This document shows, piece after piece, positions 1 through 61,711 of a stretch of DNA of 64,000 bases. Location: NCBI GenBank assembly GCA_002733765.1, contig NVWU01000007.1:157568-221567 (forward strand), read 5' to 3'. The notes under the pieces were generated by a model. The model was not told the origin of the DNA and ran no database searches. It saw nothing but the letters and a program-made list of their open reading frames with translations. The position numbers were made by a program, and so were the translations under genes. The DNA is from Colwellia sp. (GTDB lineage Bacteria; Pseudomonadota; Gammaproteobacteria; Enterobacterales; Alteromonadaceae). Each line of letters starts with the position of its first letter. Position 1 is the stretch's first letter.

Positions 1-2
1 TA

Positions 3-134
3 AAACAAGGACAAGTTATTGCTAAAGTGGGTAATTCAGGACGAGTTACCGGTCCTCATTTAGATTGGCGGATGAATTGGCACAAGGTGCGTTTTGATCC
101 ACAATTGGCGATGAAAATTATCCCTATTCAGTAA
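3..134 (+). CDS. C-terminal fragment of an M23/LytM-family peptidase (5' end outside window)
   Basis: Frame from nt 3 reads KQGQVIAKVGNSGRVTGPHLDWRMNWHKVRFDPQ...IPIQ*. The 'G.SG..TGPHL(H/D)' segment is typical of M23 metallopeptidases. Stop codon at 132-134. Confidence 0.7.
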   Translation, partial: KQGQVIAKVGNSGRVTGPHLDWRMNWHKVRFDPQLAMKIIPIQ

Positions 135-235
135 ACAATAAATAGTTTTATCTTTATATTTAAAATTGCATTATCACAGAGGCAAGGCAAGTTGATTGTT
201 CTTGGTTTTGTGCACTCTTCTCCTAAGGACACAGT

Positions 236-3200
236 ATGGCAGAACATGGCTATTCGCTGCTGCGCATTATTATTATCGACAGTTTTTGGCAAGGACAAGT
301 AAACGAACTTGATTTAACCGGCCATACTCAGCTTGAAGGAACAAACGGTGCAGGTAAAACCTCACTAATGCGTTTGTTACCACTTTTTTATGGTATGCGA
401 CCTAGCGATATTGTTAGCAAGGTTGATCAAGCAAAAAACTTTGCCGACTTTTACTTACCGCGCGAATCCAGTATTTTAGTGTACGAATACGCAAGACCCT
501 TCGGACAAAAATGCCAAGTGTTAGCTACCAGCGATGGTAGAGGTGTGCACTTTAAATTTATTGATGCCGCATACGATAGTCAGCATTTTATTGCCAGTAA
601 CACAGGTAGCAAAGCTAAACCTTTTACCCTCAACGAAATAGAAAGAAATTATCGTAACATTGGTAAAGAAAGCTCTAAATTTTTAGGCATAGATAAATAT
701 CGTCAAGTTATTCAAAATTTGCGTAGCGGCCGTAAACACAAAGAAATAAGAATACTGCAAAACCGTTTTTCTTTTAGTGATCAGGCATGTCCACATATTG
801 ATAAAGTAATTAACGGCACTATAGAAAAAAATCTAGATTTTGAAGCCGTTAAACGTATGTTAGTGGCTATTGCCAGCGATCATCTTGCCCGTGATATTAA
901 TGATGAAAAAGAACAGCTCAGTTTAAATAAAGCTGATATTACTAATTGGCTGGCTGATATTCAGGCCAGTCGCGCCATTAAAAAAGTAGCTGAAAAAATT
1001 TCGGTATGGCAAAATGACTTTAGTAAATTTTCAAGCTTAGTCAATAAGTTACAACATCTTTATGCTGAAATAATAGCGCATCAAGATCGCCTTGAAATAA
1101 AACAACAACAAAGAGAAGAGCTTAAAAAAAGCAGTAGTGAAAGCCGTAACAAACTTGACAGTGAATTAGTCAAGATAACGGAACAATATCAAAAAGACTT
1201 GTTTGACCTCGTTGCAAAGATTGAAGCAGATTTAAGTAAAATTGATTTACTTGATGCGGATAAATTTAATTACGATGATGATGATGCCAGCAGTTATCAA
1301 ATTAAGGCCGAGCAAGCACCACAAATTCAAGCTGAACTTAATGAAGTTATTGCTGTTATCGATGCTTTTGAAGGCAATATTACTAAAATCGGCCAAAAGT
1401 TTGATAAGTTAATTCAAAAAATTGAAGTTGAAAAACTTAAAGGTATCAACAGTAATAAAGAAAAATCAGCCCAAATAACGACTCAGTCTAATGAAGATTT
1501 ATCACGTATAAATGAAGTTTTTCATCAACAAGAACACGCGCTTAATGCGCAATTGCATAAAGAAGAGCTCAAGCTGCAAAAAGATCAGCAAAAGATACAA
1601 TATCAATTAGATACGGCGAAACAACAACTTAGCCAGCCAATAATACCACCGCAATTAAGCGCTGATATCGAAGTTAACATTCAGGCATTAGCGTACGCTC
1701 AGCAAAATTATAACCAGCTGGTACAACAAGAATCTGAATTACAAAAGCGGCAATATCAATTAGATAAACAGCAAAACCAGCAACTGATACAACGCAGCGA
1801 AGTTAACCGTTATCTTGAACAATTACAACAAGATTACCACCAAGTTGAATTACAACTGCTGCCGCAAGCCGACTCTTTACATCATTATCTTATGAATGAG
1901 CCTCAGGCGGCTAATTGGCAAGACACTATTGGTCGTTTGCTCACTACCGAACAATTATCGCGGTCTGATTTAAATCCACAGTGGTTAGAAAATAACAATT
2001 CACCGGCAAGTCTTTATGGTTTATCAATAGATTTACAGCAACTGCCTTGTGATGACTCTTTATTTTTAGACGAAGTGCAGCTGCGCGAAAAGCGCCAAAT
2101 TATTGAAACTAAGTTACAAACGCAAACAGATAAAATTTCACAGCTTGATGAGCAGCTAAAACTTATAGTCAAAGAAATTAATCACCTAAAAATTACTGTG
2201 ACACAGCAAGCACAAAGCTTAAATCAGCAACAACTAACGTTAGGGCAACTGCAAACACAGCAAGAAAGCTTAGTGATAAAAAAACAGCTCGCTATAAAAG
2301 TACACCGTCAAACGATAGAAGAGCAATTACAACGTTTTACTCAGCAAATAAAAACGCTTGATAAAAAACAGTCTAGCTTTGAAGAAAATAAAGCTGAGCA
2401 ATTGCGAGAGCTCACTAACGATAAGTTAGAAAAATATATGGTGGTTGAAAGTGACAGAGACAATCAGTTAACGCTATTATCTGAACAACTATCGACACTG
2501 ATAACTAATACCAAACACCGTTTAGCTGATCTTAAAAAACAACAAGCCAGCGATATTAAGCATCTTGATCCTGATGGCGAAGTAGACAAACGTATTGCCA
2601 AACGAGTGATATTAGAACAAGACCTACAACAGTGTGCGTTGTTTGCCCAAAAGGCGCGAGACTACAACAGCTTTATGAACGAACGTTATTGTCACCGTGA
2701 TGCCTTGGTTGAAGAAAACCAAAACAGAAAAATCATCAAGCGTAATATAGAAACAAATTATGAAGATAGCCGTATTGAGTTAACAACAACTATTAACGAA
2801 CTAAAACAGTTAATTAGAAAAAATAATAAAGAAAAACAAGCCACGGATGACTTATTAGTACAACTCAATGATAATAAACGCTTGTGTGAAATGTCAGCGA
2901 TTAATAGCGAACTTTGTGAGCAAGAGCCAGCCAACCAAGCCGATTTAACGGTGAGCTTTTTTCACGATTATTACCAACAATTTAAAATCATTGAAAAACG
3001 ATTGGCTGGTCAGTTAAATACCTTTAGTGAACGTTTTAGAAAAGATCACTCTGGCAGTGAGCTTTTCGAAAACTGGCAAAAGCTATTACACGACAACGAT
3101 AACTACTCTGGCGCAAAAGCACTTTTTAAATATCGTGAGCCCATTAGCGAGTTATTAAATAGCGCCGATCAAAAGCAGCAAAGTACTTATCAATTGGTGA

Positions 3201-3961
3201 CGATTAATGCCACCATGATTAACGAGTTTTATCAGCACATTGAAAACTTTGGCCGTAATATAAAACGAATTGGTAAACTGTTATCAACAAAAGTTACCGC
3301 ATTAGCACATTTTGAAGCGTTAGCTGATATCAATGTAACCACGGTAATGAAGCAAGAAGAACTAGATTACTGGGGTCCATTGCAAAAATTTGCTGAGATT
3401 TTTGATCTTTATAAAGATCAATTACGTGATGGCCTAGGCGAAGTACCCGATGATTTAGTGTTTGCCATGCAAAAGTTGGCGAGTTATTTACCTAATGAAG
3501 GTTTTGTTTTAGCGCACAATAATCTGTTTGATTTAGAGTTTACCATTGTAGAAAAAGGCCAAGTAAAACATGCACGCAATGCTAAACAACTTAAAAAAGT
3601 AAGCTCTACGGGCTTATCCTATTTAGCGATGCTGTCTTTATTTGCTGGTTTATTAGCGATGTTACGTGGCGACAGCAAACATGCTAGCCAAATAATTTTA
3701 CCTGTAGATGAATTAGGTGAGCTAGCGGCTGAAAATGTTGACCTATTGTTAAAAATGTTTAATGACAACCATATCAGTATGCTATCGGCTTCTCCATCAA
3801 CTGATCGCCATATTTTGTCCTTATATAATCGCCATTACAAATTAAAAGATAATAAAATTTACCATGCAGATATTCCACAATCTCGTTTAGATGAATTATT
3901 AGCCCAGCGTAATAAAACGCCAATAAGTACACAACCAGAGACAGCAGGGGAGTTAAGTTAA
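236..3961 (+). CDS. MukB/MksB/JetC-like SMC-family ATPase (1241 aa)
   Basis: Walker A 'GTNGAGKTS' (nt 338-364). About 1000 aa of Q/E/K/L-rich predicted coiled coil, interrupted by a non-coil segment (about nt 1855-2075, hinge-like). MukB-style signature 'SSTGLS' (nt 3602-3619) and Walker B 'ILPVDE' (D/E at nt 3707-3712). SD-like AAGGA upstream of the ATG. Confidence 0.8.
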   Translation: MAEHGYSLLRIIIIDSFWQGQVNELDLTGHTQLEGTNGAGKTSLMRLLPLFYGMRPSDIVSKVDQAKNFADFYLPRESSILVYEYARPFGQKCQVLATSDGRGVHFKFIDAAYDSQHFIASNTGSKAKPFTLNEIERNYRNIGKESSKFLGIDKYRQVIQNLRSGRKHKEIRILQNRFSFSDQACPHIDKVINGTIEKNLDFEAVKRMLVAIASDHLARDINDEKEQLSLNKADITNWLADIQASRAIKKVAEKISVWQNDFSKFSSLVNKLQHLYAEIIAHQDRLEIKQQQREELKKSSSESRNKLDSELVKITEQYQKDLFDLVAKIEADLSKIDLLDADKFNYDDDDASSYQIKAEQAPQIQAELNEVIAVIDAFEGNITKIGQKFDKLIQKIEVEKLKGINSNKEKSAQITTQSNEDLSRINEVFHQQEHALNAQLHKEELKLQKDQQKIQYQLDTAKQQLSQPIIPPQLSADIEVNIQALAYAQQNYNQLVQQESELQKRQYQLDKQQNQQLIQRSEVNRYLEQLQQDYHQVELQLLPQADSLHHYLMNEPQAANWQDTIGRLLTTEQLSRSDLNPQWLENNNSPASLYGLSIDLQQLPCDDSLFLDEVQLREKRQIIETKLQTQTDKISQLDEQLKLIVKEINHLKITVTQQAQSLNQQQLTLGQLQTQQESLVIKKQLAIKVHRQTIEEQLQRFTQQIKTLDKKQSSFEENKAEQLRELTNDKLEKYMVVESDRDNQLTLLSEQLSTLITNTKHRLADLKKQQASDIKHLDPDGEVDKRIAKRVILEQDLQQCALFAQKARDYNSFMNERYCHRDALVEENQNRKIIKRNIETNYEDSRIELTTTINELKQLIRKNNKEKQATDDLLVQLNDNKRLCEMSAINSELCEQEPANQADLTVSFFHDYYQQFKIIEKRLAGQLNTFSERFRKDHSGSELFENWQKLLHDNDNYSGAKALFKYREPISELLNSADQKQQSTYQLVTINATMINEFYQHIENFGRNIKRIGKLLSTKVTALAHFEALADINVTTVMKQEELDYWGPLQKFAEIFDLYKDQLRDGLGEVPDDLVFAMQKLASYLPNEGFVLAHNNLFDLEFTIVEKGQVKHARNAKQLKKVSSTGLSYLAMLSLFAGLLAMLRGDSKHASQIILPVDELGELAAENVDLLLKMFNDNHISMLSASPSTDRHILSLYNRHYKLKDNKIYHADIPQSRLDELLAQRNKTPISTQPETAGELS

Positions 3962-4584
3962 TGTTTAAACAAAGTATTCAAAAGCTACTTTGCGGCGCTG
4001 TTATTTGTCAAACGGCTTATGAAGCCGAATATCTGTACTTAAAAGCAGAAAGTCATAATGATAAAGTGAATGACTTTTTATCTAATTTGGATAGAAAACT
4101 TACCTATCTTGATAGCGCTGATGCTTATTACTGTACTTTTAATCAAGTGGATGAGAATAACCATCACGAGCTTAGTCTTCTCTTTAGTGAAATGCGTAGC
4201 ACTTTTAGACCTTTAGTTGAGTTTTTAGATCTACTGTTAACGGCCACGCAAGCAGATTTACCTATTCGTGCTAAATCAGTACTTAATATTAATGAGTTAT
4301 TTGAACCCTTTGAACATGATCAAACGCTGAGTGAACAATTACGCCGATTAACGTCGATAAAACCTTTTAAAACCAATAAAACAGAAACACGTGAACAACT
4401 AGTAATGGTTTTTCAAAAGCTTGAAGAAATGCACTATTTTGTTCGTAAAAATGCCGGAAGTAGTCGATATTATGCTACGGCACGTTTTGACTTAATTTAT
4501 TTATTGATTGAGTTTTTAAATGATGCTGAGCTAGTTAACTTACCTGAACAAGAGAAAAGCCAACAAGATGAGTTACTCTTTTAA
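3961..4584 (+). CDS. Small partner subunit, MksE/JetB-like (KITE) candidate, 207 aa
   Basis: Translationally coupled to the SMC gene (TAATG overlap at 3959-3963). Size and the N-terminal pattern 'LL.G.V....YEAEYLYL......VNDFL..L...L.YLDSADAYYC' resemble MksE/JetB (DUF4194-type) proteins. The assignment is by eye only. Confidence 0.45.
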   Translation: MFKQSIQKLLCGAVICQTAYEAEYLYLKAESHNDKVNDFLSNLDRKLTYLDSADAYYCTFNQVDENNHHELSLLFSEMRSTFRPLVEFLDLLLTATQADLPIRAKSVLNINELFEPFEHDQTLSEQLRRLTSIKPFKTNKTETREQLVMVFQKLEEMHYFVRKNAGSSRYYATARFDLIYLLIEFLNDAELVNLPEQEKSQQDELLF

Positions 4585-5846
4585 TGGCTGGTTTTGATTC
4601 GGCGCAAGTTGCTAGCTTACTAAGACAAATTGGTGCCTACAATGACTTACTTGCTAGTGCCTATGTTTATGGCTCTATAGCGAGTGACGAGCAAGATGCT
4701 AACACCATTAGTTTGTTACATAAGTCAGGCTTGATCAGACCTGATGATTCTCCTGGTGAGTACCGCGTAACAACCGATTTTAAACGCATGTTAAATCGAC
4801 TAATGCGTAAACAATCAAGTTATCGACAACTCACTGATATGGGGAAAGTGATTGATGCGATTGATGAAGTAGCAAAAGATTACGAATTAGCGATAAAAGC
4901 CAAAGAGCATGAAGATGCCGAGTATTATTTAGATCAACTTGATGATTTACTTTACGAAACAAAAGACAGTTTAAATAATAATTTAGATACAATGCATTTT
5001 GCTATTGTTAGTCAGTTTGGTTTTGTTAGCAGCTTGTCAAACAAAATACGACAAAATGAACGCTACTTATCACATGCACAAAAGCTGCTAAATGAACTAC
5101 AGCAAATTGATCCGCAAGACTGTTACGAGTGGCTAGATTGGGCGTGTCCGAATGAGTTTGCGCGTAAAATATCGAGTTTTGTCTATTGGTATAATCAAAT
5201 ACTACCCAAGCTGCGTTTGATCATTGATAACATGCGTATTAGCTTATTTCGCTTACGTCGAGATGAAAAACAGGCCAGCCAATTACGAAATATGGCGCGT
5301 TTTTTACGAAAACATCCTGAATTTGACCTTGATGAGAACCTTTTTGAGTTACCAAATTTACCTGAAACGCTAAAATATTCGCCACCAATGCCGCTGCGAA
5401 GTTATGTTGATATTAAGCAAACTGACATTGAACAACCTTTACTTGAATTAGTGCAGTCATTACGTAAGCAAGCCGTTGTAACACCTATTAAAGCGAGAAC
5501 AACTAGCGAAGTAAGTTTTAAACCAATTGAAAAAATTGCCGCCGAAGAAGATTTTTTTGAACAGCAAACAGAATTATTGTTCGAGCGAGTGATCATTAAT
5601 AACTGCGCAGTTTCAGCGTTAAGTTTTTACCAAGAGTTCCAAACCCCCTGGCTTGAACAGTCGCAAACCATTACGCCCAAAGCTTGGATTGAATTAGTCT
5701 TTAGTTGTTATTGCAAATTAACTAGCGCTCAGCAAAGTGCATTGAATATAAAAATGAAAGGTGTTGCGGTTAGCGGTACCACTGATAATTATTGTTATAG
5801 TGATGTAGTTATCGAGCTAAAAGCTAATATCCAAGCTAGCGCATAA
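4584..5846 (+). CDS. Partner subunit, MksF/JetA-like kleisin candidate, 420 aa
   Basis: TAATG overlap with the upstream gene (4582-4586). Size, position in the operon and the helical acidic middle region fit a kleisin. I recognised no diagnostic motif. Confidence 0.4.
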   Translation: MAGFDSAQVASLLRQIGAYNDLLASAYVYGSIASDEQDANTISLLHKSGLIRPDDSPGEYRVTTDFKRMLNRLMRKQSSYRQLTDMGKVIDAIDEVAKDYELAIKAKEHEDAEYYLDQLDDLLYETKDSLNNNLDTMHFAIVSQFGFVSSLSNKIRQNERYLSHAQKLLNELQQIDPQDCYEWLDWACPNEFARKISSFVYWYNQILPKLRLIIDNMRISLFRLRRDEKQASQLRNMARFLRKHPEFDLDENLFELPNLPETLKYSPPMPLRSYVDIKQTDIEQPLLELVQSLRKQAVVTPIKARTTSEVSFKPIEKIAAEEDFFEQQTELLFERVIINNCAVSALSFYQEFQTPWLEQSQTITPKAWIELVFSCYCKLTSAQQSALNIKMKGVAVSGTTDNYCYSDVVIELKANIQASA

Positions 5847-5912
5847 AGTTTTTTAAAATGCTATCTTAAAATAATTATAAATTTCAGCAGTGTAGTCGCA
5901 AAGGAATGTAAA

Positions 5913-6893
5913 ATGAAATCAATAATGAACAAACAGCTTTATAATTTCACGCAAGCTAAACTGCAAAAAAATCGGCAGGGTGGTCAGATAAAAAATTCAG
6001 CTTTAGCAATAAAGTTGTATGAAGAATATAATTTTGGTCAGCTTGATTTTAATAAACAATGGTTAACGTTTAATCTCGATAATATTTTAGCGTTGAGTGA
6101 TGAGATTCAAAGTGTTCTCGGTATTGATATAAGGCAAGACCCTTACCCGACTAAAAAAGACAGGCTTAGTACGGCAGAAAACTGTCGAAATGAGAAAGAA
6201 AATAGTTATGCCGTTAGTAAAGATTTTATATTGATTAATAGCCTGTCTGAACTGAACGTTAATCAAAGCTGTCATAATATATCGCCCTTAACGTCATTAG
6301 GTCTCTATATAAAAGCAGACGATATAAAGTCTATTGAACACTCGGCCATTATTCTTGTTGAAAACCTTGCGGTAATGGCTAATCTCAGGACGATAAATTT
6401 AGCGTCTATCAATAAAAAACATTCCGGTACACCTATTTTAGGTAATAATATTTCAAGTCAATATATAGACCTAACTCAGGCTTTGTGGCTCTATCGCGGT
6501 GATGTTAAAGCACAACAAACAACCAATACCAGTTATCAGTTTTTCCGTCGCTTTAAGGGAGTGACTCCTTTAATTTGTTTTAGTGATTTGGATCCTAAAG
6601 GTATTGAAATTGCACTTACCTGTAATGCCGATTATTGGCTAACCATTGAAAATACTAATGAAATCACTATGGCATTATCGGGTAATGAACAAGAATGGTA
6701 TAAACAAGGCGCTGCTATTGATTTTTTACAACAGAAGATGAAACGGGTAAAACAAAATGGTCATGATGAGGGGAATCCTGATTGGCAAAGCATGTTTAGC
6801 TCATTATTAACACATAAAAAAACGCTTAAACAAGAGCATATTCTCAAACATAAACTTTGTTTAACACTGTTAAAAATAGAATGCGATCGATAA
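5913..6893 (+). CDS. Toprim-domain protein, JetD/MksG (DUF2220)-like putative nuclease, 326 aa
   Basis: 'ILVENLAVMANL' (Toprim Glu150, nt 6360-6362). 'ICFSDLDPKGIEIAL' (DxD at Asp225/Asp227, nt 6585-6593). Trailing 'LKQEHIL'. SD AAGGAA upstream. Last gene of the SMC operon. Confidence 0.65.
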   Translation: MKSIMNKQLYNFTQAKLQKNRQGGQIKNSALAIKLYEEYNFGQLDFNKQWLTFNLDNILALSDEIQSVLGIDIRQDPYPTKKDRLSTAENCRNEKENSYAVSKDFILINSLSELNVNQSCHNISPLTSLGLYIKADDIKSIEHSAIILVENLAVMANLRTINLASINKKHSGTPILGNNISSQYIDLTQALWLYRGDVKAQQTTNTSYQFFRRFKGVTPLICFSDLDPKGIEIALTCNADYWLTIENTNEITMALSGNEQEWYKQGAAIDFLQQKMKRVKQNGHDEGNPDWQSMFSSLLTHKKTLKQEHILKHKLCLTLLKIECDR

Positions 6894-6948
6894 GGCTTGA
6901 TATTTTGCCTTACCGATTTGATATTTGAATTATTGCAGGGTAACGTGA

Positions 6949-7995
6949 CTATCTTTGTTTTATCGCATCAGCGAGCAAAGATAAAATATCGTCACTAACC
7001 GTTAAATCAATACAGGCATCGGTAATACTTTTACCATAAACAAGTGGTGTATCAGCTTTTACTGCTTGATTACCTGCTTCAATAAAGCTTTCTATCATTA
7101 CCCCAAAAACACTTTGCTCGCCTTGATTAATTTGCTCGGCAATAGAGCGAGCAACATCAATTTGTTTGTTATGATCTTTATAACTATTGCCATGGCTGCA
7201 ATCGATCATAATGCTCTGCTTAAGTTCGGCTTTCTTTAATTTACCACAAGTGTCGTTAATATCTTCCTTGTGATAATTAGGTACTTTTCCGCCGCGTAAA
7301 ATCACATGGGCAAAGGGATTACCATGGGTACGGTAGATACACATTTGTCCACTTTTATCCGGAGAATATAATACGTGAGGTACACTGGCGGCCTTAATGG
7401 CATCTAAGGCTATTTTAACGTTGCCGTCAGTACCATTTTTAAAGCCAACAGGGCATGAAAGTGCGGAAGCAAGTTCTCGGTGCACTTGGCTTTCAGTAGT
7501 ACGGGCACCAATTGCGCCCCAGCTGATCAAGTCAGATATATACTGGCCGGTAACCATATCTAAAAATTCAGTACCTGCAGGTAAACCCATTTCATTAATA
7601 TCGACTAATAATTGTCTCGCTAGGTTTAGTCCCTTGGCTACATGAAATGACTTATCCAGATCAGGATCGCTAATTAATCCTTTCCAGCCAACAGTGGTTC
7701 GTGGTTTTTCAAAATAAACGCGCATCACAATAAGTAACTCATTACTGTACTTATCACGTAATACGGTTAGACGCTTTGCGTAGTCAATGGCAGCCGTGGT
7801 GTCATGAATAGAGCACGGACCAATAATAACTAATAGGCGTTTATCTTCACCACTGATAATGGCTTCTATTTCTCTACGACTTTTCATGATGAAGTCAGCA
7901 GTAGTTGCGCTTAAAGGAATTTGTTGTGCTAATTGTGCAGGAGACACTAAGTTTTCAATTAAACTTGTTCGTAGTTCATCAGTTTTAATAATCAT
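6949..7995 (-). CDS. 3-deoxy-7-phosphoheptulonate (DAHP) synthase, class I (AroF/G/H type)
   Basis: Full-length similarity to enterobacterial DAHP synthases ('LLVIIGPCSIHD', 'YFEKPRTTVGWKGL', 'GARTTESQ.HRE'). The isozyme cannot be assigned. Confidence 0.9.
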   Translation of the reverse strand: MIIKTDELRTSLIENLVSPAQLAQQIPLSATTADFIMKSRREIEAIISGEDKRLLVIIGPCSIHDTTAAIDYAKRLTVLRDKYSNELLIVMRVYFEKPRTTVGWKGLISDPDLDKSFHVAKGLNLARQLLVDINEMGLPAGTEFLDMVTGQYISDLISWGAIGARTTESQVHRELASALSCPVGFKNGTDGNVKIALDAIKAASVPHVLYSPDKSGQMCIYRTHGNPFAHVILRGGKVPNYHKEDINDTCGKLKKAELKQSIMIDCSHGNSYKDHNKQIDVARSIAEQINQGEQSVFGVMIESFIEAGNQAVKADTPLVYGKSITDACIDLTVSDDILSLLADAIKQR

Positions 7996-8146
7996 GAAAT
8001 GTTATGCTTTTTTAAGACGATATTGTTTATGTTGCACTGTAGCGCGTATAAACATAAATTATGCGCGCTAACATAGCTAAATTAATCGCTAATGTGAACC
8101 ATTTAACTAATAATAAGTATGATTGTTTGATATAAATTATTATCCG

Positions 8147-8956
8147 TTAGTATTTATATCGTTGTAGCCCTGTTTCACTCAATATTTTCGCGGTGATTTC
8201 TTCTACTGAAAATTTAGTTGTATTGAGAAAGGGTATTTTCTCTTTTTTATAGAGTTTTTCAACTTCTCGTACTTCCATACGACATTGTCTAGGTGAAGCA
8301 TATTTGCTATTAGACATTCTATTATCACGAATATCAATTAACCGTTGAGCGTCTATCGTTAAACCGAAGAGTTTCTTTTTAAAGGGTTTCAAAAAGCTTG
8401 GTAATTTTAAATCATCCATGTCTTCGTCAGTAAATGGATAGTTGGCCGCTTTTATGCCGTATTGCAGCGCTAAATAAAGTGAACTGGGCGTTTTACCTGA
8501 GCGTGATACGCCAACAAGAATTACATCGGCATCCTCATAATTAGTAATCTTAGAGCCATCATCATTAGCCAGTGCATAATTTACCGCCTCTATACGATAA
8601 TCATAGCTGTTTTCATGAATACTGTGGGTTCGATGTGCTTTTGGTTTTGCTTTCATACCAAGTTTTTCTTCAAGAGGCGCGACGAAATGCTCTAAAAAGT
8701 TGTAAATGACGCCATCACAACTGTCAATAATTTCGCGGATATCATTATTAACAAAGGTATGAAAAACTAACGCGGGTTCTTTACTGCGAGCACAGACTTT
8801 ATTGATTTTTTCTTTTACTTCGAGTGCTTTTTCAACTGACTCAACAAAGGGAATGGTTTGATGTTCAAATTCTGTAGGAAATAAAGAAAGCAACGCATGA
8901 CCAAATACTTCAGAAGTTATTGCTGTTCCGTCGGAAATATAGAAAGCTGTGCGCAT
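8147..8956 (-). CDS. ppsR: PEP synthase regulatory protein (bifunctional kinase/pyrophosphorylase)
   Basis: 'MRTAFYISDGTAITSEVFGHALLSLFP' and P-loop 'GVSRSGKTP'. Divergent from ppsA, as in E. coli. Confidence 0.9.
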   Translation of the reverse strand: MRTAFYISDGTAITSEVFGHALLSLFPTEFEHQTIPFVESVEKALEVKEKINKVCARSKEPALVFHTFVNNDIREIIDSCDGVIYNFLEHFVAPLEEKLGMKAKPKAHRTHSIHENSYDYRIEAVNYALANDDGSKITNYEDADVILVGVSRSGKTPSSLYLALQYGIKAANYPFTDEDMDDLKLPSFLKPFKKKLFGLTIDAQRLIDIRDNRMSNSKYASPRQCRMEVREVEKLYKKEKIPFLNTTKFSVEEITAKILSETGLQRYKY

Positions 8957-9152
8957 AATAAACCTCTTATATAAATTATGGTGATAGTGAGAATGAAAAC
9001 TTCTAAGTTATGTTTTATTTTAACTTTTAGTTTTTTAGGTTAGCAGTGTAGAATGTCTTAAGTTATAAATATAGTGCTACAAATAAATAAGCATCTTTAG
9101 TCTTTTAAATAAATAGATTTATTCTTTTACTGACTCTCAATGGAGAATTGTT

Positions 9153-11573
9153 GTGCAAGAAAACGTACTTTGGTATGAAAACTTAGGAATGGGTGATGTT
9201 GACCGTGTTGGCGGTAAAAATGCTTCACTTGGGGAAATGATTTCTAACTTAGCGAATATGGGCGTACAAGTGCCTACTGGTTTTGCTACTACATCTTTTG
9301 CTTTTAATGAGTTTTTAGAGCAAAGCGGTATTAATGAAAAAATTTATCAGCTGCTCGATGGTCTTGATGTTAGTGACTTAAAAGAATTAGCAAGGTGTGG
9401 GCAAACCATTCGACAATGGATTATTGACACGCCTTTCTTGGAAGAAATGCAAAAGGATATTAAAAGCGCTTACGCAAAATTAGCAGGAGAGTTTTCTGAC
9501 GATGCTTCATTTGCCGTTCGCTCATCTGCTACTGCTGAAGATATGCCAGATGCTTCATTTGCTGGGCAACAAGAAACTTTTCTTAACGTACGTGGCTTTG
9601 ATGCTGTAATGATCGCCATTAAGCATGTTTTTGCATCACTGTTTAATGACCGTGCTATTTCTTATCGTGTACATCAAGGTTACGACCACCGTGGTGTCGC
9701 GCTATCTGCTGGTATACAGCAAATGGTGCGCAGTGATATATCGGCTTCGGGTGTTATGTTCTCCATTGATACTGAATCAGGCTTTGAAGATGTCGTTTTT
9801 ATTACTTCTAGCTTTGGTTTAGGCGAGATGGTAGTGCAGGGTGCGGTTAATCCAGATGAATTTTATGTGCATAAGCCTACGCTTGCTAAAGGCAAACCTG
9901 CGGTTGTCCGTAGAAATATTGGTAGTAAAGCCATTAAAATGGTTTATAGCGCAGATCCATTAGAAAACCAAGAACATGGTAAGCAAGTTGAAATTGTTGA
10001 TATTGATGAACAAGACTCTAACCGTTTTTCATTAACAGATGCTGAAGTGCAAGAGCTGGCTAAACAAGCGGTGATCATAGAAAAACATTATGGTCGCCCA
10101 ATGGATATTGAATGGGCCAAAGATGGTTTAGACAATAAACTTTATATTGTACAAGCACGCCCAGAAACTGTTAAAAGTCGTGAAAGCGCCAATATCATGG
10201 AACAATTCCAAATAAATAGCCAATTACAAGCTACGGCAAAAGTTATTTGTGAAGGGCGCTCAATAGGTCAAAAAATTGGTAGTGGCACAGTTAAAGTATT
10301 AGCCTCTTTAGCTGAAATGGATAGAATCCTTCCGGGTGATGTTTTAGTAACAGATATGACAGATCCTGATTGGGAACCTATCATGAAACGCGCTTCAGCC
10401 ATTGTAACTAATCGTGGTGGCAGAACTTGTCATGCGGCTATAATTGCCCGTGAAATGGGTATTCCTGCGGTAGTTGGTTGTGGCAATGCAACTGAGATTA
10501 TTAAAGAAGGTGACGAGGTTACAGTTTCTTGTGCTGAAGGTGATACTGGCTTTATTTATCAAGGTAAGTTGGATTACACCGTTACCACTTCTGAAATTGA
10601 TGCAATGCCAGAGTTACCACTTAAAATCATGATGAATGTTGGTAATCCAGACCGAGCGTTCTCTTTTGCTAAATTACCTCATGCCGGTATCGGTTTAGCG
10701 CGTTTAGAATTTATCATTAATAAAATGATTGGTGTTCATCCAAAAGCGTTAATCAATTTTGATAGCCAGTCAGCTGACTTACAAGAGGAAATTAACGATA
10801 TTATCGCCGGTTATGAAAGTCCGATTGAGTTTTATGTTGCTAAATTGACTGAAGGAATTTCAACTCTTGCTGCTGCTTTTTCACCAGAAAAAGTAATAGT
10901 GCGTATGTCTGATTTTAAATCAAATGAATATGCGAATTTGGTTGGTGGTGAAGAATACGAGCCGGATGAAGAAAACCCTATGATTGGTTATCGTGGTGCG
11001 GCTCGTTATATTTCAACCGATTTCCGTGATTGTTTTGCACTTGAATGTGAAGCACTTAAACGTGTACGTAACGATATGGATTTAACCAATGTTGAAGTAA
11101 TGATTCCATTTGTTAGAACGCTTGAAGAAGCATCACAAGTCATTGATATTTTAGCTGAGCATGGTTTAAAGCGTGGTGAAAATGGTTTACGTATTATTAT
11201 GATGTGTGAGTTACCTTCAAATGCATTGCTTGCCGATCAATTCCTCGACTACTTTGATGGCTTCTCTATTGGTTCAAACGATTTAACTCAGCTAACACTT
11301 GGTTTAGATAGAGACTCAGGCTTAATTGCTCACTTGTTTGATGAGCGTGATCCTGCCATAAAAGCATTATTGTCAATGGCAATTAGCGCCTGTAAGAAGC
11401 GCGGTAAATATGTTGGTATTTGTGGTCAAGGGCCTTCTGATCATGAAGACTTTGCTGCATGGCTTGTAGAGCAGGGTATTGATAGCGTATCACTAAACCC
11501 TGATACGGTATTACCAACCTGGTTATACCTTGCTGAAAAACTTGCTGAAAAACTAGCTGAAAAGACAAAATAA
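9153..11573 (+). CDS. ppsA: Phosphoenolpyruvate synthase
   Basis: GTG start with GGAGA SD. '[11 protein letters not shown]' and the phosphohistidine motif '[21 protein letters not shown]'. The C-terminus carries a short LAEK x3 repeat. Confidence 0.95.
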
Positions 11574-11901: not shown

Positions 11902-14004
11902 ATGAAGGACTATGTTAAATTGGTGTGTGATGATAAGTTACCTGACAAGAAGATCTTAGCCCAAAAGATCGTAGTGAATGATCCATTACATCATTTATTT
12001 GATGCTGTGGATGCTGTTGCTGTACAAGGTTACAATGAAAACCGTCAGGTTATTTATTGGAATAAAGGCAGTGAATTACTCTATGGTTACACAAGTAAGG
12101 AAGCCGTAGGAGAAAAAATTGAAGACTTAATTATTCCACAGCCAATGAAAGGTACGGTGATAGCAGGTATTAAAAACTGGATAAGTAATGGCGTAGAAAT
12201 TCCCGCTGGAGAATTAATATTACGTCGTAAAGATGGCAAAAACATTTCTGTTTATTCAAGCCATGCTCTGTTTACAAATCAATATAATCAGAAGCAAATA
12301 TATTGTATAGATATTAATTTATCTGATTTGAAACATGTTGAGGCCGAAGCTGAACTGACAGAGCACATGTTAGCGGCAACATTTGAAGTTATTCCTGATT
12401 TATTTTTTTTAATGACAGCTGATGGCACCATCATTGATTATCATGCGAGTAATAAAGCTAATTTGTATGTGTCTCCTGCAGAATTTATTGGTAGGCCTAT
12501 GACTGATATACTTCCTAGTGAAGTTGCAGATCAATTTAAATGTAATATGTTGAAAATTATCACACAAGGGGGAGTGATTAATTTTGAATATGAGCTTGTG
12601 ATGCCCCATGGCGTAATTTATTTTGAAGCAAGAATGACCTACCTCGCGGATAATAAAAAAATAATAGCTATTATTAGAGATGTCACTGAGCAACATCAGG
12701 CATCAGAATTTATTAAAATGCATGCCTATTATGACACCTTAACGCAATTACCTAATCGTTTTCTAGCCTTAGATCGTTTATCACAAATGCTTAATGAAGC
12801 TGAGCGTAATAATGAAAAAACTGCCGTGCTATTTCTTGATTTAGATGATTTTAAAAAGGTGAATGATTCATTAGGCCATGAGGTAGGTGATAAATTATTG
12901 ATTGAATCTGCAATAAGGTTAAAAAATATTGTTCGTAAAGACGATACGGTAGGACGTTTAGGTGGTGATGAATTTATAATTATATTACGTAGTTTAACGT
13001 ATGATCATAATGCTTTATTTGTCGCTGAAAATTTACTACGAAGTTTTAGAAATCCTTTTAAAATTGACGGTAGAGAACTTATTCTAACGCTCAGTATTGG
13101 TATTGCCATGTTTCCTGAAAATGGTAAAAACAGCTCTGAATTATTACGAAATGCTGATACTGCTATGTATAAAGCCAAGTCATTGGGAAGAAATACCTAT
13201 TCATTTTTTACCAAAGAAATGAATGTAAACATGTTACGCCGTTTAGAAGTTGAAGAACAAATGCACGGAGCATTAGAACGTGGTGAATTTGAAGTGTATT
13301 ATCAACCTCAAATTGACGCTATCAATAAAAAAATTATTGGCGCTGAAGCTTTACTACGTTGGTATAATCCCGCATTAGGAAACGTGACACCAGATGAATT
13401 TATTCCTATTGCAGAACACACGGGCTTAATTGTTCCTATTGGTCAGTTTGTTCTTAAACAAGCTTTATCTTTTTTAAATATTTGGCAAACAGAACAACAA
13501 ACTTCATTAAGGATTGCCGTTAATTTATCTCCACGGCAATTTAGAGATACTGAGTTATTGAATTTTATTGAAACATCGCTTACTAAAGCTAATATTACTG
13601 CGGATAAACTTGAACTTGAAATTACCGAAGGTGTACTCATGATAGGGCAAGCTTATATTGATAATGCGCTTATGAAATTACATGAACTTGGTGTTAAGCT
13701 CTCAATGGATGATTTTGGTACTGGTTATTCTTCGTTAAGTTATCTACGACAATACGCTTTTGACATACTCAAAATAGACAGAAGTTTTATTAATGGGATT
13801 ACCAGTAATAAAGCCGATTGTGATTTGGTTAAAGCCACTATTGCTATGGCACATAGTTTAGGTTTAAAGGTTGTTGCTGAAGGGGTTGAAACTAAGGAAC
13901 AATTTGAACTATTAAATCAGTTGGAGTGTGACTATCTTCAAGGTTACTATTTTAGTAAAGCTATAACCATGAAACAATTACTAGATTTTTCTGTGACGTT
14001 TTAA
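11902..14004 (+). CDS. PAS-PAS-GGDEF-EAL cyclic-di-GMP signalling protein
   Basis: 'RLGGDEFIII' (GGDEF), 'GAEALLRW' and 'DDFGTGYSSLSYL' (EAL). Two N-terminal PAS-like segments. Confidence 0.9.
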   Translation: MKDYVKLVCDDKLPDKKILAQKIVVNDPLHHLFDAVDAVAVQGYNENRQVIYWNKGSELLYGYTSKEAVGEKIEDLIIPQPMKGTVIAGIKNWISNGVEIPAGELILRRKDGKNISVYSSHALFTNQYNQKQIYCIDINLSDLKHVEAEAELTEHMLAATFEVIPDLFFLMTADGTIIDYHASNKANLYVSPAEFIGRPMTDILPSEVADQFKCNMLKIITQGGVINFEYELVMPHGVIYFEARMTYLADNKKIIAIIRDVTEQHQASEFIKMHAYYDTLTQLPNRFLALDRLSQMLNEAERNNEKTAVLFLDLDDFKKVNDSLGHEVGDKLLIESAIRLKNIVRKDDTVGRLGGDEFIIILRSLTYDHNALFVAENLLRSFRNPFKIDGRELILTLSIGIAMFPENGKNSSELLRNADTAMYKAKSLGRNTYSFFTKEMNVNMLRRLEVEEQMHGALERGEFEVYYQPQIDAINKKIIGAEALLRWYNPALGNVTPDEFIPIAEHTGLIVPIGQFVLKQALSFLNIWQTEQQTSLRIAVNLSPRQFRDTELLNFIETSLTKANITADKLELEITEGVLMIGQAYIDNALMKLHELGVKLSMDDFGTGYSSLSYLRQYAFDILKIDRSFINGITSNKADCDLVKATIAMAHSLGLKVVAEGVETKEQFELLNQLECDYLQGYYFSKAITMKQLLDFSVTF

Positions 14005-14583: not shown

Positions 14584-15876
14584 ATGCGCATTATTCACAC
14601 TTCTGATTGGCATTTAGGTCAATACTTCTATGGTAAAAGCCGAGCAAATGAGCATCAGCAATTTTTAACTTGGTTGATATCACAAGTTAAACGTTACGAT
14701 ATTGATGCCATTATTGTTGCGGGTGACATTTTTGACACCGCCACGCCGCCAAGTTATGCCAGGCAAATGTACTTTAATTTTATCAGTAAAATACAATCAC
14801 TTGATTGCCAACTGGTTATTTTAGCAGGTAATCATGACTCTGTAAGTATGTTAGCTGAATCGAAAGAATTATTAAGTGCTTTATCCACTCGCGTGATCGC
14901 TAATGTGAGTGATTTAGAAAACAATGATAATTTGGCTGAACAAGTATTTATTCTAAAAAATAACCACCAAGAACCCAAAGCAGTGATTTGTGCGGTGCCA
15001 TTTATTCGTCCGCGTGATGTTATTAAAAGTCAGCAGGGGCAATCAGCAAATGATAAATCTAAAAGCTTACAACAAGCCATTGTTGAGCATTATCAAACCT
15101 TATTTGAACATGCACAGCAACTGGTAAAAGACAGTAAACTTGCGTTACCTATTATTGCCACTGGGCACTTAACTGCTTTGGGTGTTACTAGTTCAGATTC
15201 AGTGCGAGATATTTATATTGGCACGTTAGAAGCCTTACCCAGTAATGCTTTTCCAGCCGCAGATTATATTGCTTTAGGTCATATACATCGTGCGCAAAAA
15301 GTCGGTAAAACGGAACATATTCGTTATTGTGGCTCACCTATCGCGTTAAGTTTTGATGAAGCGACACACGATAAACGAGTATTACTGGTTGATTTTACAG
15401 ATAATAACTTAACTTTAGTGACATCTCTCATTGTGCCATGTTTTCAACCATTAGCGATGGTAAAAACTAGCTTAGCTAAACTTAGCCAAGCGGTTGAAAA
15501 GCTGCTAGCGGAGCTAAACTTCAGTCAAGAAAATAGTCAAAAGCTTTGGTTAGATATTGAACTAGTTGATAGCGACCGTTTAAGTGATTTACAGTCAAGA
15601 ATAACAACACTGGTAGAAAATTTTCCCGTTGAAATATTATTAGTTAGACGTGCTAAGCAAATACGTCAGCAATTAATGCAAGCACAACAAGATAACAGCA
15701 CACTAAGTGAACTTACTCTTGATGAAGTATTCTCTTCACGTTTAAATCAGGAAGAATACTTTAGTCATGGGGGTGAAAGCTCAAATGAAGCCGAAAAGCG
15801 TGATGAACATAAGAAAAGACTGCAAACCTTGTTCAAGCAAACGGTCGCGCAAGTTTTAGCTAAGGGAAGCGCTTAA
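14584..15876 (+). CDS. sbcD: Exonuclease SbcCD, nuclease subunit D
   Basis: Mre11-type phosphoesterase motifs '[10 protein letters not shown]', 'AGDIFD', 'GNHDS', 'GHIH'. Confidence 0.92.
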
Positions 15877-18800: not shown

Positions 18801-19373
18801 CAAAATAAAATGAAGCAACAAGGCCTATTAATTCAGATAACTGATGAACAAACAGCCTTAGATGATCTGGCTTATTTAACACGCTTAATCGGCTCAGCTG
18901 ATGGCGCTAAATTTAGAAAGTTTGCCCAAGGTTTAACCCTTAATCATTTAGTGTATTTAGCCAACGAACAACTCAATAAACTCGATGGTCGTTATCAATT
19001 ACAGTGTCAGCCAAATGAAACGTTAAGTCTATCGGTACTCGACACATGGCAGGGCGATAGTGTTCGCGATACTAAAACGCTTTCTGGTGGCGAGAGCTTT
19101 TTAGTCAGTTTGGCATTGGCGTTAGCATTGTCAGATTTGGTTAGCAGTAAAACCAGTATTGATTCACTATTTTTAGATGAAGGCTTTGGTACATTAGATA
19201 ACGACACTTTAGAGATTGCCTTAGACGCATTAGATAACTTAAATGCTACAGGTAAGATGATTGGTATTATTAGTCATGTCGAAGCATTGAAAGAGCGGAT
19301 AGCGGTGCAAATTAAAGTAGAAAAACAAAGTGGTTTAGGGGTTAGTTGTTTAGATAAGCAATTTGCGGTGTAA
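15876..19373 (+). CDS. sbcC: Exonuclease SbcCD, ATPase subunit C (Rad50-like)
   Basis: TAATG coupling to sbcD. Walker A 'GATGAGKTS', zinc hook 'CPLCGS', signature '[15 protein letters not shown]', Walker B '[11 protein letters not shown]'. Confidence 0.92.
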
Positions 19374-61346: not shown

Positions 61347-61429
61347 GTCATATGATCTTTGTCACTTGAAAAGGTAAATAACGCTTGCTATTTCCGCTGA
61401 GCCGTTGATAATCGCGTTCTGTAAAAAAG

Positions 61430-61585
61430 TCATTAATTTTTAATGTTATTGCAAGAAAATGCAATATTTGGGAATGTGGTGAAAAACCACAACTGTGCCC
61501 GCAACTGTAAGTCAATAAAGAGTACACGCTTAATTTGAGCTGTTTTTTGATATTGACAAGTCAGGATACCCATTAAAATATTAAT
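61430..61585 (+). promoter_or_regulatory. Cobalamin (B12) riboswitch
   Basis: Core 'GGGAATGTGGTGAAAAACCACAACTGTGCCCGCAACTGTAAG' and B12-box-like 'AAGTCAGGATACCC'. Upstream of an ABC importer and cobT. Confidence 0.8.
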
Positions 61586-61711
61586 CAATTATATCAATTC
61601 GAGCGGGTTACTCGAACACTGTATATTCATTCATTTGTTATATAACGTTACGTTAACAACAAAGAATCGATTGTGCGCTGTTTGACCGTTTGATAAATAA
61701 GCGAGTGAACA

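What the first reader, a model, noticed from the sequence alone, without database searches (positions are those of the whole stretch)
236..6893. Wadjet/MksBEFG-like SMC-plus-Toprim operon with SMC-first gene order and very divergent accessory subunits
Seen in the sequence: four co-directional genes, the first three joined by TAATG stop/start overlaps (3959-3963 and 4582-4586).
- Gene 1 is a 1241-aa ATPase. It has Walker A GTNGAGKTS, a MukB-style 'SSTGLS' signature instead of LSGGQ, Walker B VDE, and about 1000 aa of Q-rich coiled coil.
- Gene 4 carries the Toprim Glu (ILVENL) and DxD (FSDLDPKG) in the arrangement of JetD/MksG.

Established knowledge: Wadjet (JetABCD) and MksBEFG are SMC complexes that recognise and cleave small circular DNA. 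Their usual gene order is kleisin, KITE, SMC, nuclease.

What is unusual here:
- The order is SMC, then a 207-aa gene, then a 420-aa gene, then the nuclease.
- The two middle proteins are only weakly recognisable.
- The nuclease is about 20 percent shorter than typical JetD.
- The operon sits as an isolated islet between an M23 peptidase gene and a DAHP synthase gene. No integrase or transposase is nearby.

Inference: this may be an unclassified Wadjet subtype, or a distinct SMC-based DNA-surveillance system.
Basis: partly seen in the sequence, partly recalled or inferred. Interest (0 to 1): 0.85.

Follow-up and report, generated by a model that had tools for sequence, protein, structure and literature searches.

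The report
SMC-first Wadjet-group (MksBEFG) operon in Colwellia
This is a real four-gene SMC-plus-nuclease operon of the Wadjet/MksBEFG group, in a rare SMC-first "BEFG" branch that a 2025 census already lists but nobody has studied, and here it is a stably inherited chromosomal locus rather than a mobile defence islet.

Summary
There are four co-directional genes at 236-6893, two TAATG overlaps, intact ATPase motifs and an intact Toprim Glu and DxD.

Subunit identities:
- g1 is a full-length DUF3584 SMC-like ATPase (MksB-type).
- g2 is a MksE-type KITE; close homologues pass the Pfam MksE threshold.
- The g3 model retrieves MukF and JetA kleisins.
- The g4 model (DUF7281) retrieves topoisomerase VI-A and the MksG nuclease, and family members hit the PADLOC JetD1 profile.

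The operon is not unclassified. Bürmann et al. 2025 (Cell, Data S1) list 11 "BEFG" operons and 1 "BEF" operon as Wadjet-group members. One is the Ferrimonas orthologue I recovered independently (L059). PADLOC profiles for Wadjet types I-III barely detect it.

It is not an islet. B-E-F is syntenic in Colwellia, Psychromonas, Shewanella, Ferrimonas and Pseudoalteromonas. The upstream flank is conserved within Colwellia and base composition is flat. E and F are highly conserved. G evolves about twice as fast, and it is displaced in 6 and absent in 5 of 58 loci. Distant relatives sit on IS-flanked plasmids.

The most likely mechanism is Wadjet-like loop extrusion with cleavage of small circular DNA. 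A nuclease-independent chromosomal role of BEF is a serious rival, because DUF3584 mutants in Shewanella are cisplatin-sensitive. Verdict: new member of a known but uncharacterised kind, of moderate interest.

The parts
236..3961 (+). g1: MksB/JetC-type SMC-like ABC ATPase (1241 aa, Pfam DUF3584). N-terminal head with Walker A (nt 338-364), Q-rich arms, putative hinge (about aa 546-640), C-terminal head with signature-like SSTGLS (nt 3602-3619) and Walker B IILPVDE (nt 3692-3712).
   Evidence: Pfam DUF3584, 1090 bits, profile positions 1-1191/1191. Motifs invariant in 19 orthologues, and the conservation profile runs heads > hinge > arms. Arm composition. The orthologue L059 is listed as MksB in Bürmann et al. 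Data S1. PADLOC annotates JetC2/JetC3 as 'DUF3584 domain; MukB-like', and L059 g1 hits the JetC2 N-terminus at E=6e-4.
3961..4584 (+). g2: MksE/JetB-type KITE subunit (207 aa), translationally coupled to g1 through a TAATG overlap.
   Evidence: Homologues 72-83% identical to g2 pass the Pfam MksE (PF21980) gathering score (31-32.5 bits against 27; profile positions 3-150/163). Plasmid-borne counterparts also pass (34.5 and 28 bits). The window protein itself gives only a weak PADLOC JetB1 hit, E=0.0023, residues 1-43. Overlap read.
4584..5846 (+). g3: MukF/MksF/JetA-type kleisin (420 aa), translationally coupled to g2 through a TAATG overlap.
   Evidence: The AF2 model shows an N-terminal winged helix (6-62), a long helical bundle (85-243), a disordered linker (266-321) and a C-terminal helices-plus-hairpin domain (314-412). 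Foldseek hits ranked 1-8 against the PDB include six MukF chains and one JetA chain (9gm7_C E=3.7e-4, 7nz2, 3rpu, 9gm9, 3euh, 1t98; JetA 9qxt_E, with 8q72_E further down), though TM-scores are low at 0.15-0.2. The orthologue is listed as MksF in Bürmann et al. Data S1. No Pfam family matches.
5847..5912 (.). 66-nt AT-rich spacer between g3 and g4. This is the only non-overlapping junction of the operon and the place where g4 is separated or lost in other genomes.
   Evidence: Sequence read. No terminator-like site here, and the promoter/terminator counts for the region are not above shuffled controls. Across 58 loci the gap is under 500 nt in 47, between 0.5 and 7.6 kb in 6, and g4 is absent in 5.
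5913..6893 (+). g4: MksG/JetD-type Toprim nuclease (326 aa, Pfam DUF7281). N-terminal winged-helix/CAP-like domain plus C-terminal Toprim with E150 (nt 6360-6362) and D225xD227 (nt 6585-6593).
   Evidence: Pfam DUF7281 E=1.9e-35. Weak PADLOC JetD1 hit, E=0.0057, over the Toprim part. AF2 model pLDDT 79.7. Foldseek: topoisomerase VI-A 1d3y_B E=9.8e-5 prob 1.0, M. mazei Top6A, and C. glutamicum MksG 8b7f_A prob 0.91. Family members P0408 and P0498 hit JetD1 at 3e-10 and 2e-7. Catalytic residues are invariant.

Best explanation
The locus encodes a complete Wadjet-group (Mks) SMC complex of the SMC-first 'BEFG' branch. Its genes are MksB (g1, DUF3584), MksE (g2, KITE), MksF (g3, kleisin) and MksG (g4, DUF7281, Toprim nuclease).

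Shown here: the four subunit identities, intact ATPase and Toprim catalytic motifs, translational coupling of B-E-F, and orthology to operons already listed as Wadjet-group BEFG.

Inferred by analogy with type I Wadjet and MukBEF:
- MksF dimerises through its N-terminal winged helix and bridges the neck and cap of MksB heads.
- MksE dimers sit on MksF.
- The resulting dimer of motors loads on DNA and extrudes loops using ATP.
- On small circular DNA, extrusion runs to completion and stalls.
- The stalled complex licenses the MksG dimer to cut, using the E150 and D225/D227 metal site, which eliminates plasmids.

In Colwellia the system is a fixed chromosomal locus rather than a mobile island.
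For: - Subunit assignments: Pfam DUF3584 end to end; Pfam MksE above threshold in close g2 homologues; Foldseek of g3 returns MukF/JetA; Foldseek of g4 returns Top6A and MksG; DUF7281 members hit PADLOC JetD1 at 3e-10.
- Catalytic motifs are invariant across five genera.
- TAATG coupling confirmed.
- 47 of 58 loci keep B-E-F-G contiguous and co-directional.
- The same DUF3584-MksE-x-DUF7281 operon occurs on IS-flanked plasmids, a typical setting for defence systems.
- Ferrimonas futtsuensis (my locus L059) and Psychromonas psych-6C06 orthologues are listed as Wadjet-group 'BEFG' by Bürmann et al. 2025.
- g4 evolves about twice as fast as B/E/F, as expected for an effector under conflict.
- The mechanism for type I Wadjet is described in PMC10586767.
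Against: - No functional data exist for this branch, so plasmid restriction is inferred only.
- PADLOC Wadjet profiles barely detect the window proteins: none for g1 and g3, E about 0.002-0.006 for g2 and g4.
- HMMER profiles of g1 heads, g2, g3 and g4 find no MukB/JetC/JetA/JetB/JetD chain in the PDB.
- The g3 structural matches have low TM-scores and the model has pTM 0.33.
- Genus-wide vertical inheritance, very high conservation of E and F, retention of an intact BEF core in the 5 genomes without adjacent g4, and cisplatin and motility phenotypes of DUF3584 mutants in Shewanella all point to a role beyond, or instead of, plasmid defence.
Confidence: 0.6

Rival explanations
1. The complex is primarily a chromosome-maintenance or DNA-damage-tolerance SMC complex, like P. 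aeruginosa MksBEF or MukBEF. B-E-F organise or repair the chromosome, and MksG is an optional, separately evolving add-on that contributes little to the core function in these Alteromonadales.
For: - DUF3584 and its two neighbouring genes are cofit and specifically important for cisplatin resistance and motility in three Shewanella species.
- B-E-F is syntenic and full length in all complete loci of five genera, including the 5 without adjacent g4.
- E and F are 90-96% identical within Colwellia and 58-75% across genera.
- Flanks are housekeeping genes, including NdpA upstream, and composition is flat.
- MksG-less members of the Wadjet group with chromosomal roles are known.
Against: - g4 is retained next to g3 with an intact catalytic Glu and DxD in 47 of 58 loci, so it is under selection.
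- The same operon is carried by IS-flanked plasmids.
- I could not verify that the Shewanella strains with phenotypes carry g4, or whether g4 mutants share the phenotype.
- Cisplatin sensitivity could be an indirect effect.
Confidence: 0.3
2. It is not a Wadjet-group complex but another SMC-like ATPase plus nuclease system (Lamassu-, SbcCD/Rad50-, RecN- or PARIS/OLD-like), or an unrelated new system that only resembles Wadjet.
For: - PADLOC gives weak LmuB and AriA hits to g1 orthologues, E from 1e-4 to 0.06.
- g1 heads find only generic ABC P-loops in the PDB by sequence.
Against: - The LmuB hits lie in coiled-coil or P-loop stretches.
- The partners are a MksE-family KITE and a MukF/JetA-like kleisin, which Lamassu, SbcCD, RecN and PARIS lack.
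- g4 matches Top6A and MksG, not OLD/AriB-type or Cap4-type effectors.
- An independent iterative-profile census places the orthologues in the Wadjet group.
Confidence: 0.04
3. The operon is a decaying remnant of a once-mobile defence system with no current function.
For: - g4 is lost or displaced in 11 of 58 loci.
- Two Psychromonas genomes (L049, L057) give fragmentary matches.
Against: - All four window ORFs are intact with invariant catalytic motifs.
- E and F are among the most conserved proteins seen here.
- Shewanella mutants have phenotypes.
Confidence: 0.02

Closest known systems
Wadjet-group 'BEFG' operons catalogued in Bürmann et al. 2025 (Cell; PMC7617805, Data S1, clusters 1-12: Psychrobacter, Acinetobacter, Vibrio breoganii, Ferribacterium, Ferrimonas, Methylomonas, Paraferrimonas, Psychromonas; Ruminobacter as BEF)
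   Same: Same gene order B-E-F-G and same subunit sizes (about 1230, 207, 414 and 220-300 aa). The Ferrimonas futtsuensis entry is my locus L059, with 44/60/46/30% identity to g1-g4. The Psychromonas psych-6C06 entry carries the g3 homologue P0208.
   Different: The Colwellia operon itself is not in the 80%-clustered table. The clade is only listed there; it is not described, named or tested.
Type I Wadjet / JetABCD (E. coli GF4-3, P. aeruginosa PA14) and C. glutamicum MksBEFG
   Same: Four-subunit composition: kleisin, KITE, MukB-like SMC and a CAP-plus-Toprim nuclease. The g3 fold retrieves JetA and the g4 fold retrieves MksG. The Toprim Glu and DxD are conserved.
   Different: - Gene order is B-E-F-G instead of A-B-C-D / F-E-B-G.
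- PADLOC type I-III profiles give no hit or only marginal hits.
- The nuclease is about 20% shorter and belongs to its own Pfam family, DUF7281. That family is small: 330 clusters at 50% identity.
- The kleisin is shorter (420 aa against about 470-500 aa for the JetA chains matched).
- The locus is chromosomally fixed and vertically inherited.
MukBEF (E. coli) and MksBEF (P. aeruginosa)
   Same: The best structural matches of g3 are MukF. g2 falls in the Pfam MksE family. The BEF core persists without the nuclease in some genomes, as in MukBEF and MksBEF.
   Different: Most members of this clade keep a Toprim nuclease. Gene order is reversed relative to mukFEB. g1 is about 240 aa shorter than MukB (length from my own knowledge). 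No MatP, topoisomerase IV or AcpP links were examined.
Shewanella DUF3584 three-gene module (Sama_0592-0594; Price et al., bioRxiv 10.1101/072470)
   Same: DUF3584 protein followed by two unannotated cofit genes. The Shewanella loci recovered here have the same B-E-F-G operon at 57-59% g1 identity.
   Different: Orthology to the exact strains assayed (for example S. amazonensis) was not verified here. That paper did not recognise the partners as KITE and kleisin and did not mention the nuclease.

Membership tests
Wadjet group / MksBEFG (Doron 2018; Bürmann 2025) | MukB-like SMC ATPase: N- and C-terminal ABC head halves with Walker A, signature and Walker B motifs, long antiparallel coiled-coil arms, central hinge | tested here: met
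   DUF3584 matched end to end. Motifs are invariant, and conservation runs heads > hinge > arms. Q-rich, Pro/Gly-poor arms. Caveat: there is no direct HMMER link to solved MukB/JetC, and no structure model of g1 was made.
Wadjet group / MksBEFG | KITE subunit of the MukE/MksE/JetB family | tested here: met
   Homologues 72-83% identical to g2 score 31-32.5 bits against the Pfam MksE cutoff of 27. Plasmid counterparts score 34.5 and 28 bits. The window protein itself is sub-threshold.
Wadjet group / MksBEFG | Kleisin of the MukF/MksF/JetA type (N-terminal winged helix, helical bundle, flexible linker, C-terminal winged helix) | tested here: met
   Domain layout of the AF2 model. The best Foldseek hits are MukF and JetA chains, best E=3.7e-4. 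Moderate strength only: pTM 0.33, TM-scores 0.15-0.2, and no Pfam or PADLOC hit.
Wadjet group / MksBEFG | Toprim nuclease of the MksG/JetD type (Top6A-like) with catalytic Glu and DxD | tested here: met
   Foldseek finds Top6A (E=9.8e-5) and MksG 8b7f (prob 0.91). DUF7281 relatives hit JetD1 at 3e-10. E150, D225 and D227 are invariant.
Wadjet group / MksBEFG | Co-directional operon of consecutive B, E, F genes with an optional flanking G | tested here: met
   This matches the operon criteria used in Bürmann et al., and orthologues are listed there as BEFG.
Wadjet group / MksBEFG | ATP-dependent restriction or cleavage of small circular DNA | not testable with these tools
   Needs transformation assays or in vitro cleavage experiments.
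Named Wadjet types I-III (PADLOC/DefenseFinder definitions) | All four proteins match the JetA/B/C/D profiles of one type, in jetABCD order | tested here: not met
   PADLOC gives no hit for g1 or g3, JetB1 E=0.0023 for g2 and JetD1 E=0.0057 for g4. The order is C-B-A-D. The literature recognises only types I-III.
MukBEF proper | mukF-mukE-mukB order, no nuclease, MukB of about 1480 aa | tested here: not met
   Gene order is B-E-F, a nuclease is present, and g1 is 1241 aa. The MukB length is from my own knowledge.
Lamassu (LmuABC) | LmuB SMC-like protein with an LmuA effector and LmuC; no kleisin or KITE | tested here: not met
   Only weak coiled-coil or P-loop LmuB hits to orthologues. The partners are a KITE and a kleisin.

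The most novel reading that the evidence does not exclude
In Alteromonadales the BEFG complex has been domesticated. It is a vertically inherited Wadjet-group SMC complex that still carries an active MksG nuclease yet works on the host chromosome, in tolerance of crosslink damage and in chromosome organisation, as the Shewanella cisplatin and motility phenotypes suggest. That would make it the first nuclease-bearing Wadjet-group complex with a documented chromosomal role. It would also be a living intermediate on the proposed path from defence system to condensin (Wadjet to MksBEF/MukBEF). The repeated loss or displacement of g4 would then show that transition in progress.
Probability: 0.25. 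Interest if true: 0.65.

Novelty: new member of a known kind. Interest (0 to 1): 0.38.

Why it matters
Standard defence-system finders miss this branch, and PADLOC profiles barely see it, so Wadjet-group systems are under-counted in marine gammaproteobacteria.

The branch is compact: an SMC of about 1240 aa, a kleisin of about 415 aa and a nuclease of about 290 aa. It occurs both on small IS-flanked plasmids and as a fixed chromosomal locus. That makes it a good natural system for two open questions:
- How a plasmid-cleaving SMC complex avoids or uses the chromosome.
- Whether MukBEF/MksBEF-type condensins arose from defence systems by loss of the nuclease.

The existing Shewanella fitness data (cisplatin, motility) have not been connected to Wadjet in any paper I could search, and they give an immediate, testable handle.

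Tried and rejected
- HMMER profile searches against all PDB sequences found no SMC, kleisin, KITE or JetD chain. I tried g2 (A1), g3 (A2), g4 (A3) and fused g1 heads (A4), plus single-sequence searches of g1 and g4. The only matches were chance hits or generic ABC P-loops. Sequence alone is too diverged, and structure prediction was needed.
- NCBIfam has no model for any of the four proteins.
- PADLOC on the window proteins gave only two marginal hits.
- Promoter and terminator scans over 1-7200 were not above shuffled controls, so I make no claim about transcription units beyond the coupling seen in the sequence.
- Horizontal-transfer islet idea: rejected. GC is 0.34-0.38 throughout and matches the flanks, and the upstream synteny is conserved.
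- Mobile-element insertion idea for the 4-7.6 kb between g3 and g4 in some Psychromonas: rejected. The intervening genes are metabolic (YkuD, DUF3087, aminotransferase, Zn-ADH).
- Petrushenko et al. 2011 (PMC3179180), the original MksBEF paper, is not held, so I could not check whether it already mentions this branch.
- No paper mentions DUF7281, links MksB with cisplatin, or defines a Wadjet type IV.
- A structure model of g1 and multimer models could not be run, because the two prediction jobs went to g3 and g4.
Full report
OBSERVATION

The four ORFs exist exactly as described: 236-3961 (1241 aa), 3961-4584 (207 aa), 4584-5846 (420 aa) and 5913-6893 (326 aa), all on the + strand. The TAATG stop/start overlaps at 3959-3963 and 4582-4586 are read directly in the sequence. 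A 66-nt AT-rich spacer precedes g4.

In g1, the Walker A (GTNGAGKTS, residues 35-43), the signature-like SSTGLS (1123-1128) and Walker B (IILPVDE, D1158/E1159) are invariant in 19 orthologues from five genera. Conservation is highest in the heads (about 0.9) and lowest in the arms (about 0.5), with a secondary rise at about 521-640 that I read as the hinge. The arms are Q-rich (15.6% and 11.4% Q) and almost free of Pro and Gly.

In g4, VENL (E150) and FSDLDPKG (D225, D227) are invariant even in 30%-identical Ferrimonas orthologues.

The flanks are an M23 peptidase C-terminus (3-131) and a class I DAHP synthase on the opposite strand, followed by PpsR and PpsA.

WHAT EACH GENE IS

g1 matches Pfam DUF3584 over the whole profile (1090 bits). 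PADLOC's own descriptions tag JetC2 and JetC3 as 'DUF3584 domain; MukB-like', and the Ferrimonas orthologue of g1 hits the JetC2 N-terminus weakly.

g2 has no Pfam hit itself. Homologues 72-83% identical to it pass the curated threshold of Pfam MksE (PF21980) over nearly the whole profile, and so do the plasmid-borne counterparts. The window protein gives a marginal JetB1 hit.

g3 has no family in any library. Its AlphaFold2 model (pLDDT 67, pTM 0.33) shows the kleisin layout: N-terminal winged helix, long helical bundle, roughly 55-residue disordered linker, and a C-terminal helices-plus-hairpin domain. The Foldseek hits ranked 1-8 against the PDB include six MukF chains and one JetA chain, best E=3.7e-4, although TM-scores are low as expected for a flexible protein.

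g4 is Pfam DUF7281. Its model (pLDDT 79.7) retrieves topoisomerase VI-A (1d3y, E=9.8e-5, prob 1.0; M. mazei Top6A) and the C. glutamicum MksG nuclease (8b7f, prob 0.91). An exhaustive profile search shows DUF7281 is a small, compact family: 330 clusters at 50% identity with E<=1e-3 among 1.84 billion representatives, nearly all 280-305 aa. Some of its members hit the PADLOC JetD1 Toprim region at 3e-10 and 2e-7, which gives a sequence bridge to JetD.

The operon is therefore B (SMC), E (KITE), F (kleisin), G (Toprim nuclease).

IS IT ALREADY KNOWN?

Yes, at census level. Bürmann et al. 2025 (Cell; PMC7617805) searched about 257,000 genomes iteratively for co-directional MksB/F/E operons with optional MksG. 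Their Data S1 lists 11 'BEFG' operons and 1 'BEF' operon as clusters 1-12. These come from Psychrobacter, Acinetobacter (one on a plasmid), Vibrio breoganii, Ferribacterium, Ferrimonas futtsuensis, Methylomonas, Paraferrimonas, Psychromonas psych-6C06 and Ruminobacter.

The Ferrimonas entry (NZ_AUGL01000008.1, mksB 102279-105989) is exactly my locus L059, whose four genes are 44/60/46/30% identical to g1-g4. The Psychromonas entry is the contig that carries g3 homologue P0208.

The main text of that paper does not discuss the BEFG operons. Reviews and later structural work still speak of three Wadjet types. I found no paper on DUF7281, no 'type IV' Wadjet, and no link between MksB and the DUF3584 phenotypes. 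PADLOC profiles for types I-III essentially miss the operon.

It is outside the named types and invisible to the standard finders, but it is already filed in the Wadjet group with this same gene order.

CONTEXT AND EVOLUTION

I recovered 66 related loci from Colwellia, Psychromonas, Shewanella, Ferrimonas and Pseudoalteromonas denitrificans. B-E-F is contiguous, co-directional and in the same order in every complete locus.

Within Colwellia the upstream genes are conserved: NdpA nucleoid-associated protein, amidohydrolase, PTPS and M23 peptidase. GC content is flat across the operon and its flanks. This is a vertically inherited chromosomal locus, not an islet.

The downstream side is variable. 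Other Colwellia carry TehB, a beta-CASP protein and a phage-integrase-family gene there. The window's DAHPS/PpsR/PpsA flank is unique among the loci.

Median identity to the window proteins ranks E > F > B > G in every genus: Colwellia 96/90/86/67%, Psychromonas 72/60/57/39%, Ferrimonas 58/46/44/30%.

Of 58 loci with a complete g3 and enough flank, g4 is adjacent in 47. It is displaced by 0.5-7.6 kb on the same strand in 6; where I annotated the intervening genes they are metabolic. It is absent from at least 8 kb of flank in 5. In those five the B, E and F genes are full length.

Distant relatives (about 26-28% identity in the heads) with the same DUF3584-MksE-x-DUF7281 layout sit on 37 plasmids. 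They include a 40-kb Acinetobacter plasmid and Aromatoleum EbN1 plasmid 1, both next to IS5 transposases. The wider family is therefore mobile, while the Alteromonadales branch looks fixed.

HOW IT MOST LIKELY WORKS

The composition and the intact catalytic sites are shown here. The rest is inferred by analogy with type I Wadjet and MukBEF (PMC10586767, PMC7617805):
- A kleisin-bridged dimer of MksB motors, decorated with MksE, loads on DNA and extrudes loops.
- Complete extrusion of a small circle stalls the motors.
- The stall licenses the Top6A-like MksG dimer to cleave.

I give this 0.6.

The main rival (0.3) is that in these bacteria BEF has a nuclease-independent chromosomal role. Price et al. 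found DUF3584 and its two neighbours cofit and specifically important for cisplatin resistance and motility in three Shewanella species. E and F are under strong purifying selection, and BEF persists where G is gone. The two readings are not exclusive.

Non-Wadjet SMC-like systems (Lamassu, SbcCD, PARIS) are rejected because the partners are a KITE and a kleisin and the nuclease is Top6A/MksG-like. A decaying remnant is rejected because of intact motifs, strong conservation and mutant phenotypes.

VERDICT

The finding is real and correctly identified as Wadjet/MksBEFG-like. It is a new member (the Colwellia orthologue) of a branch that is already catalogued but uncharacterised, so it is not a new kind of system. 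It is not an isolated islet, and its accessory subunits are conserved within the clade.

Interest is moderate (0.38). The branch is missed by defence finders, is compact, occurs in both mobile and fixed forms, and has unexploited fitness data that could test whether a nuclease-bearing Wadjet-group complex acts on the chromosome.

Noticed in passing
window 14584-19373 (+): SbcD (430 aa; Metallophos plus SbcD_C) and SbcC (1165 aa; AAA_23, SbcC_Walker_B) lie 8 kb downstream. This is a second SMC-like ATPase and nuclease pair in the same neighbourhood, presumably the housekeeping hairpin nuclease.
   Followed up: no
window 61424-61591 (+): Cobalamin riboswitch (Rfam RF00174, 62 bits, E=5.6e-13), just upstream of the ORF at 61712-62539.
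   Followed up: no
window 11902-14004 (+) and 50966-54796 (-): Two large PAS-GGDEF-EAL signalling proteins, of 700 and 1276 aa.
   Followed up: no
window 6894-11573; loci L001, L002, L005, L013 downstream of g4: The flank downstream of the operon is a variable region. Other Colwellia carry TehB, a beta-CASP hydrolase and a phage-integrase-family gene 3-6 kb past g4. The window instead has DAHP synthase, PpsR and PpsA, a junction seen in none of the other 66 loci.
   Followed up: partly
L015 15862-21049; also L017, L041, L050, L060: In one Psychromonas lineage, 4-7.6 kb of ordinary metabolic genes (YkuD L,D-transpeptidase, DUF3087, class I/II aminotransferase, Zn-dependent dehydrogenase) sit between g3 and g4 on the same strand, so the nuclease gene is uncoupled from B-E-F.
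   Followed up: partly
L008, L011, L018 (Colwellia); L042, L051 (Psychromonas): No g4 lies within at least 8 kb downstream of g3, yet B, E and F are full length. In L042 and L051 the flanking genes match those of the g4-bearing L032, which looks like a clean deletion. The C. psychrerythraea GAB14E contig of L008 still carries a g4 homologue (P0048) elsewhere.
   Followed up: partly
L068 (Acinetobacter sp. ACNIH1 plasmid pACI-b25a, 40 kb) and L067 (Aromatoleum aromaticum EbN1 plasmid 1): Complete DUF3584-MksE-x-DUF7281 operons sit on plasmids next to IS5 transposases. In L067 the operon is also next to a DNA methyltransferase and a thermonuclease. A 40-kb plasmid carrying a Wadjet-group system raises the question of how it avoids cutting itself.
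   Followed up: partly
L001 5763-6818 and equivalents in other Colwellia loci (outside the window): The gene for the 37-kDa nucleoid-associated protein NdpA/YejK lies about 3 kb upstream of the operon throughout Colwellia. This may be coincidence.
   Followed up: no
L049 and L057 (Psychromonas sp. KJ10-2 and KJ10-10, complete genomes): The g1, g3 and g4 matches are fragmentary, for example g1 covered only from 11514 or only up to 12646. These may be frameshifts, pseudogenes or assembly errors.
   Followed up: no
window 5913-5927: The g4 start is ambiguous. ATG at 5913 gives 326 aa and lies 7-8 nt after an AAGGA. ATG at 5925 gives 322 aa, matches database entry P0001, and is where most orthologues start (MNK...).
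   Followed up: partly
window 3961-4000 (g2 N-terminus): The first residues of g2 (MFKQxxQxLLxG) are nearly invariant across genera, and this is the only part of g2 that PADLOC aligns to JetB1. In type I JetB the N-terminus carries the IFDR motif that contacts JetD (PMC10586767). The motif stays conserved in genomes that lack adjacent g4.
   Followed up: partly
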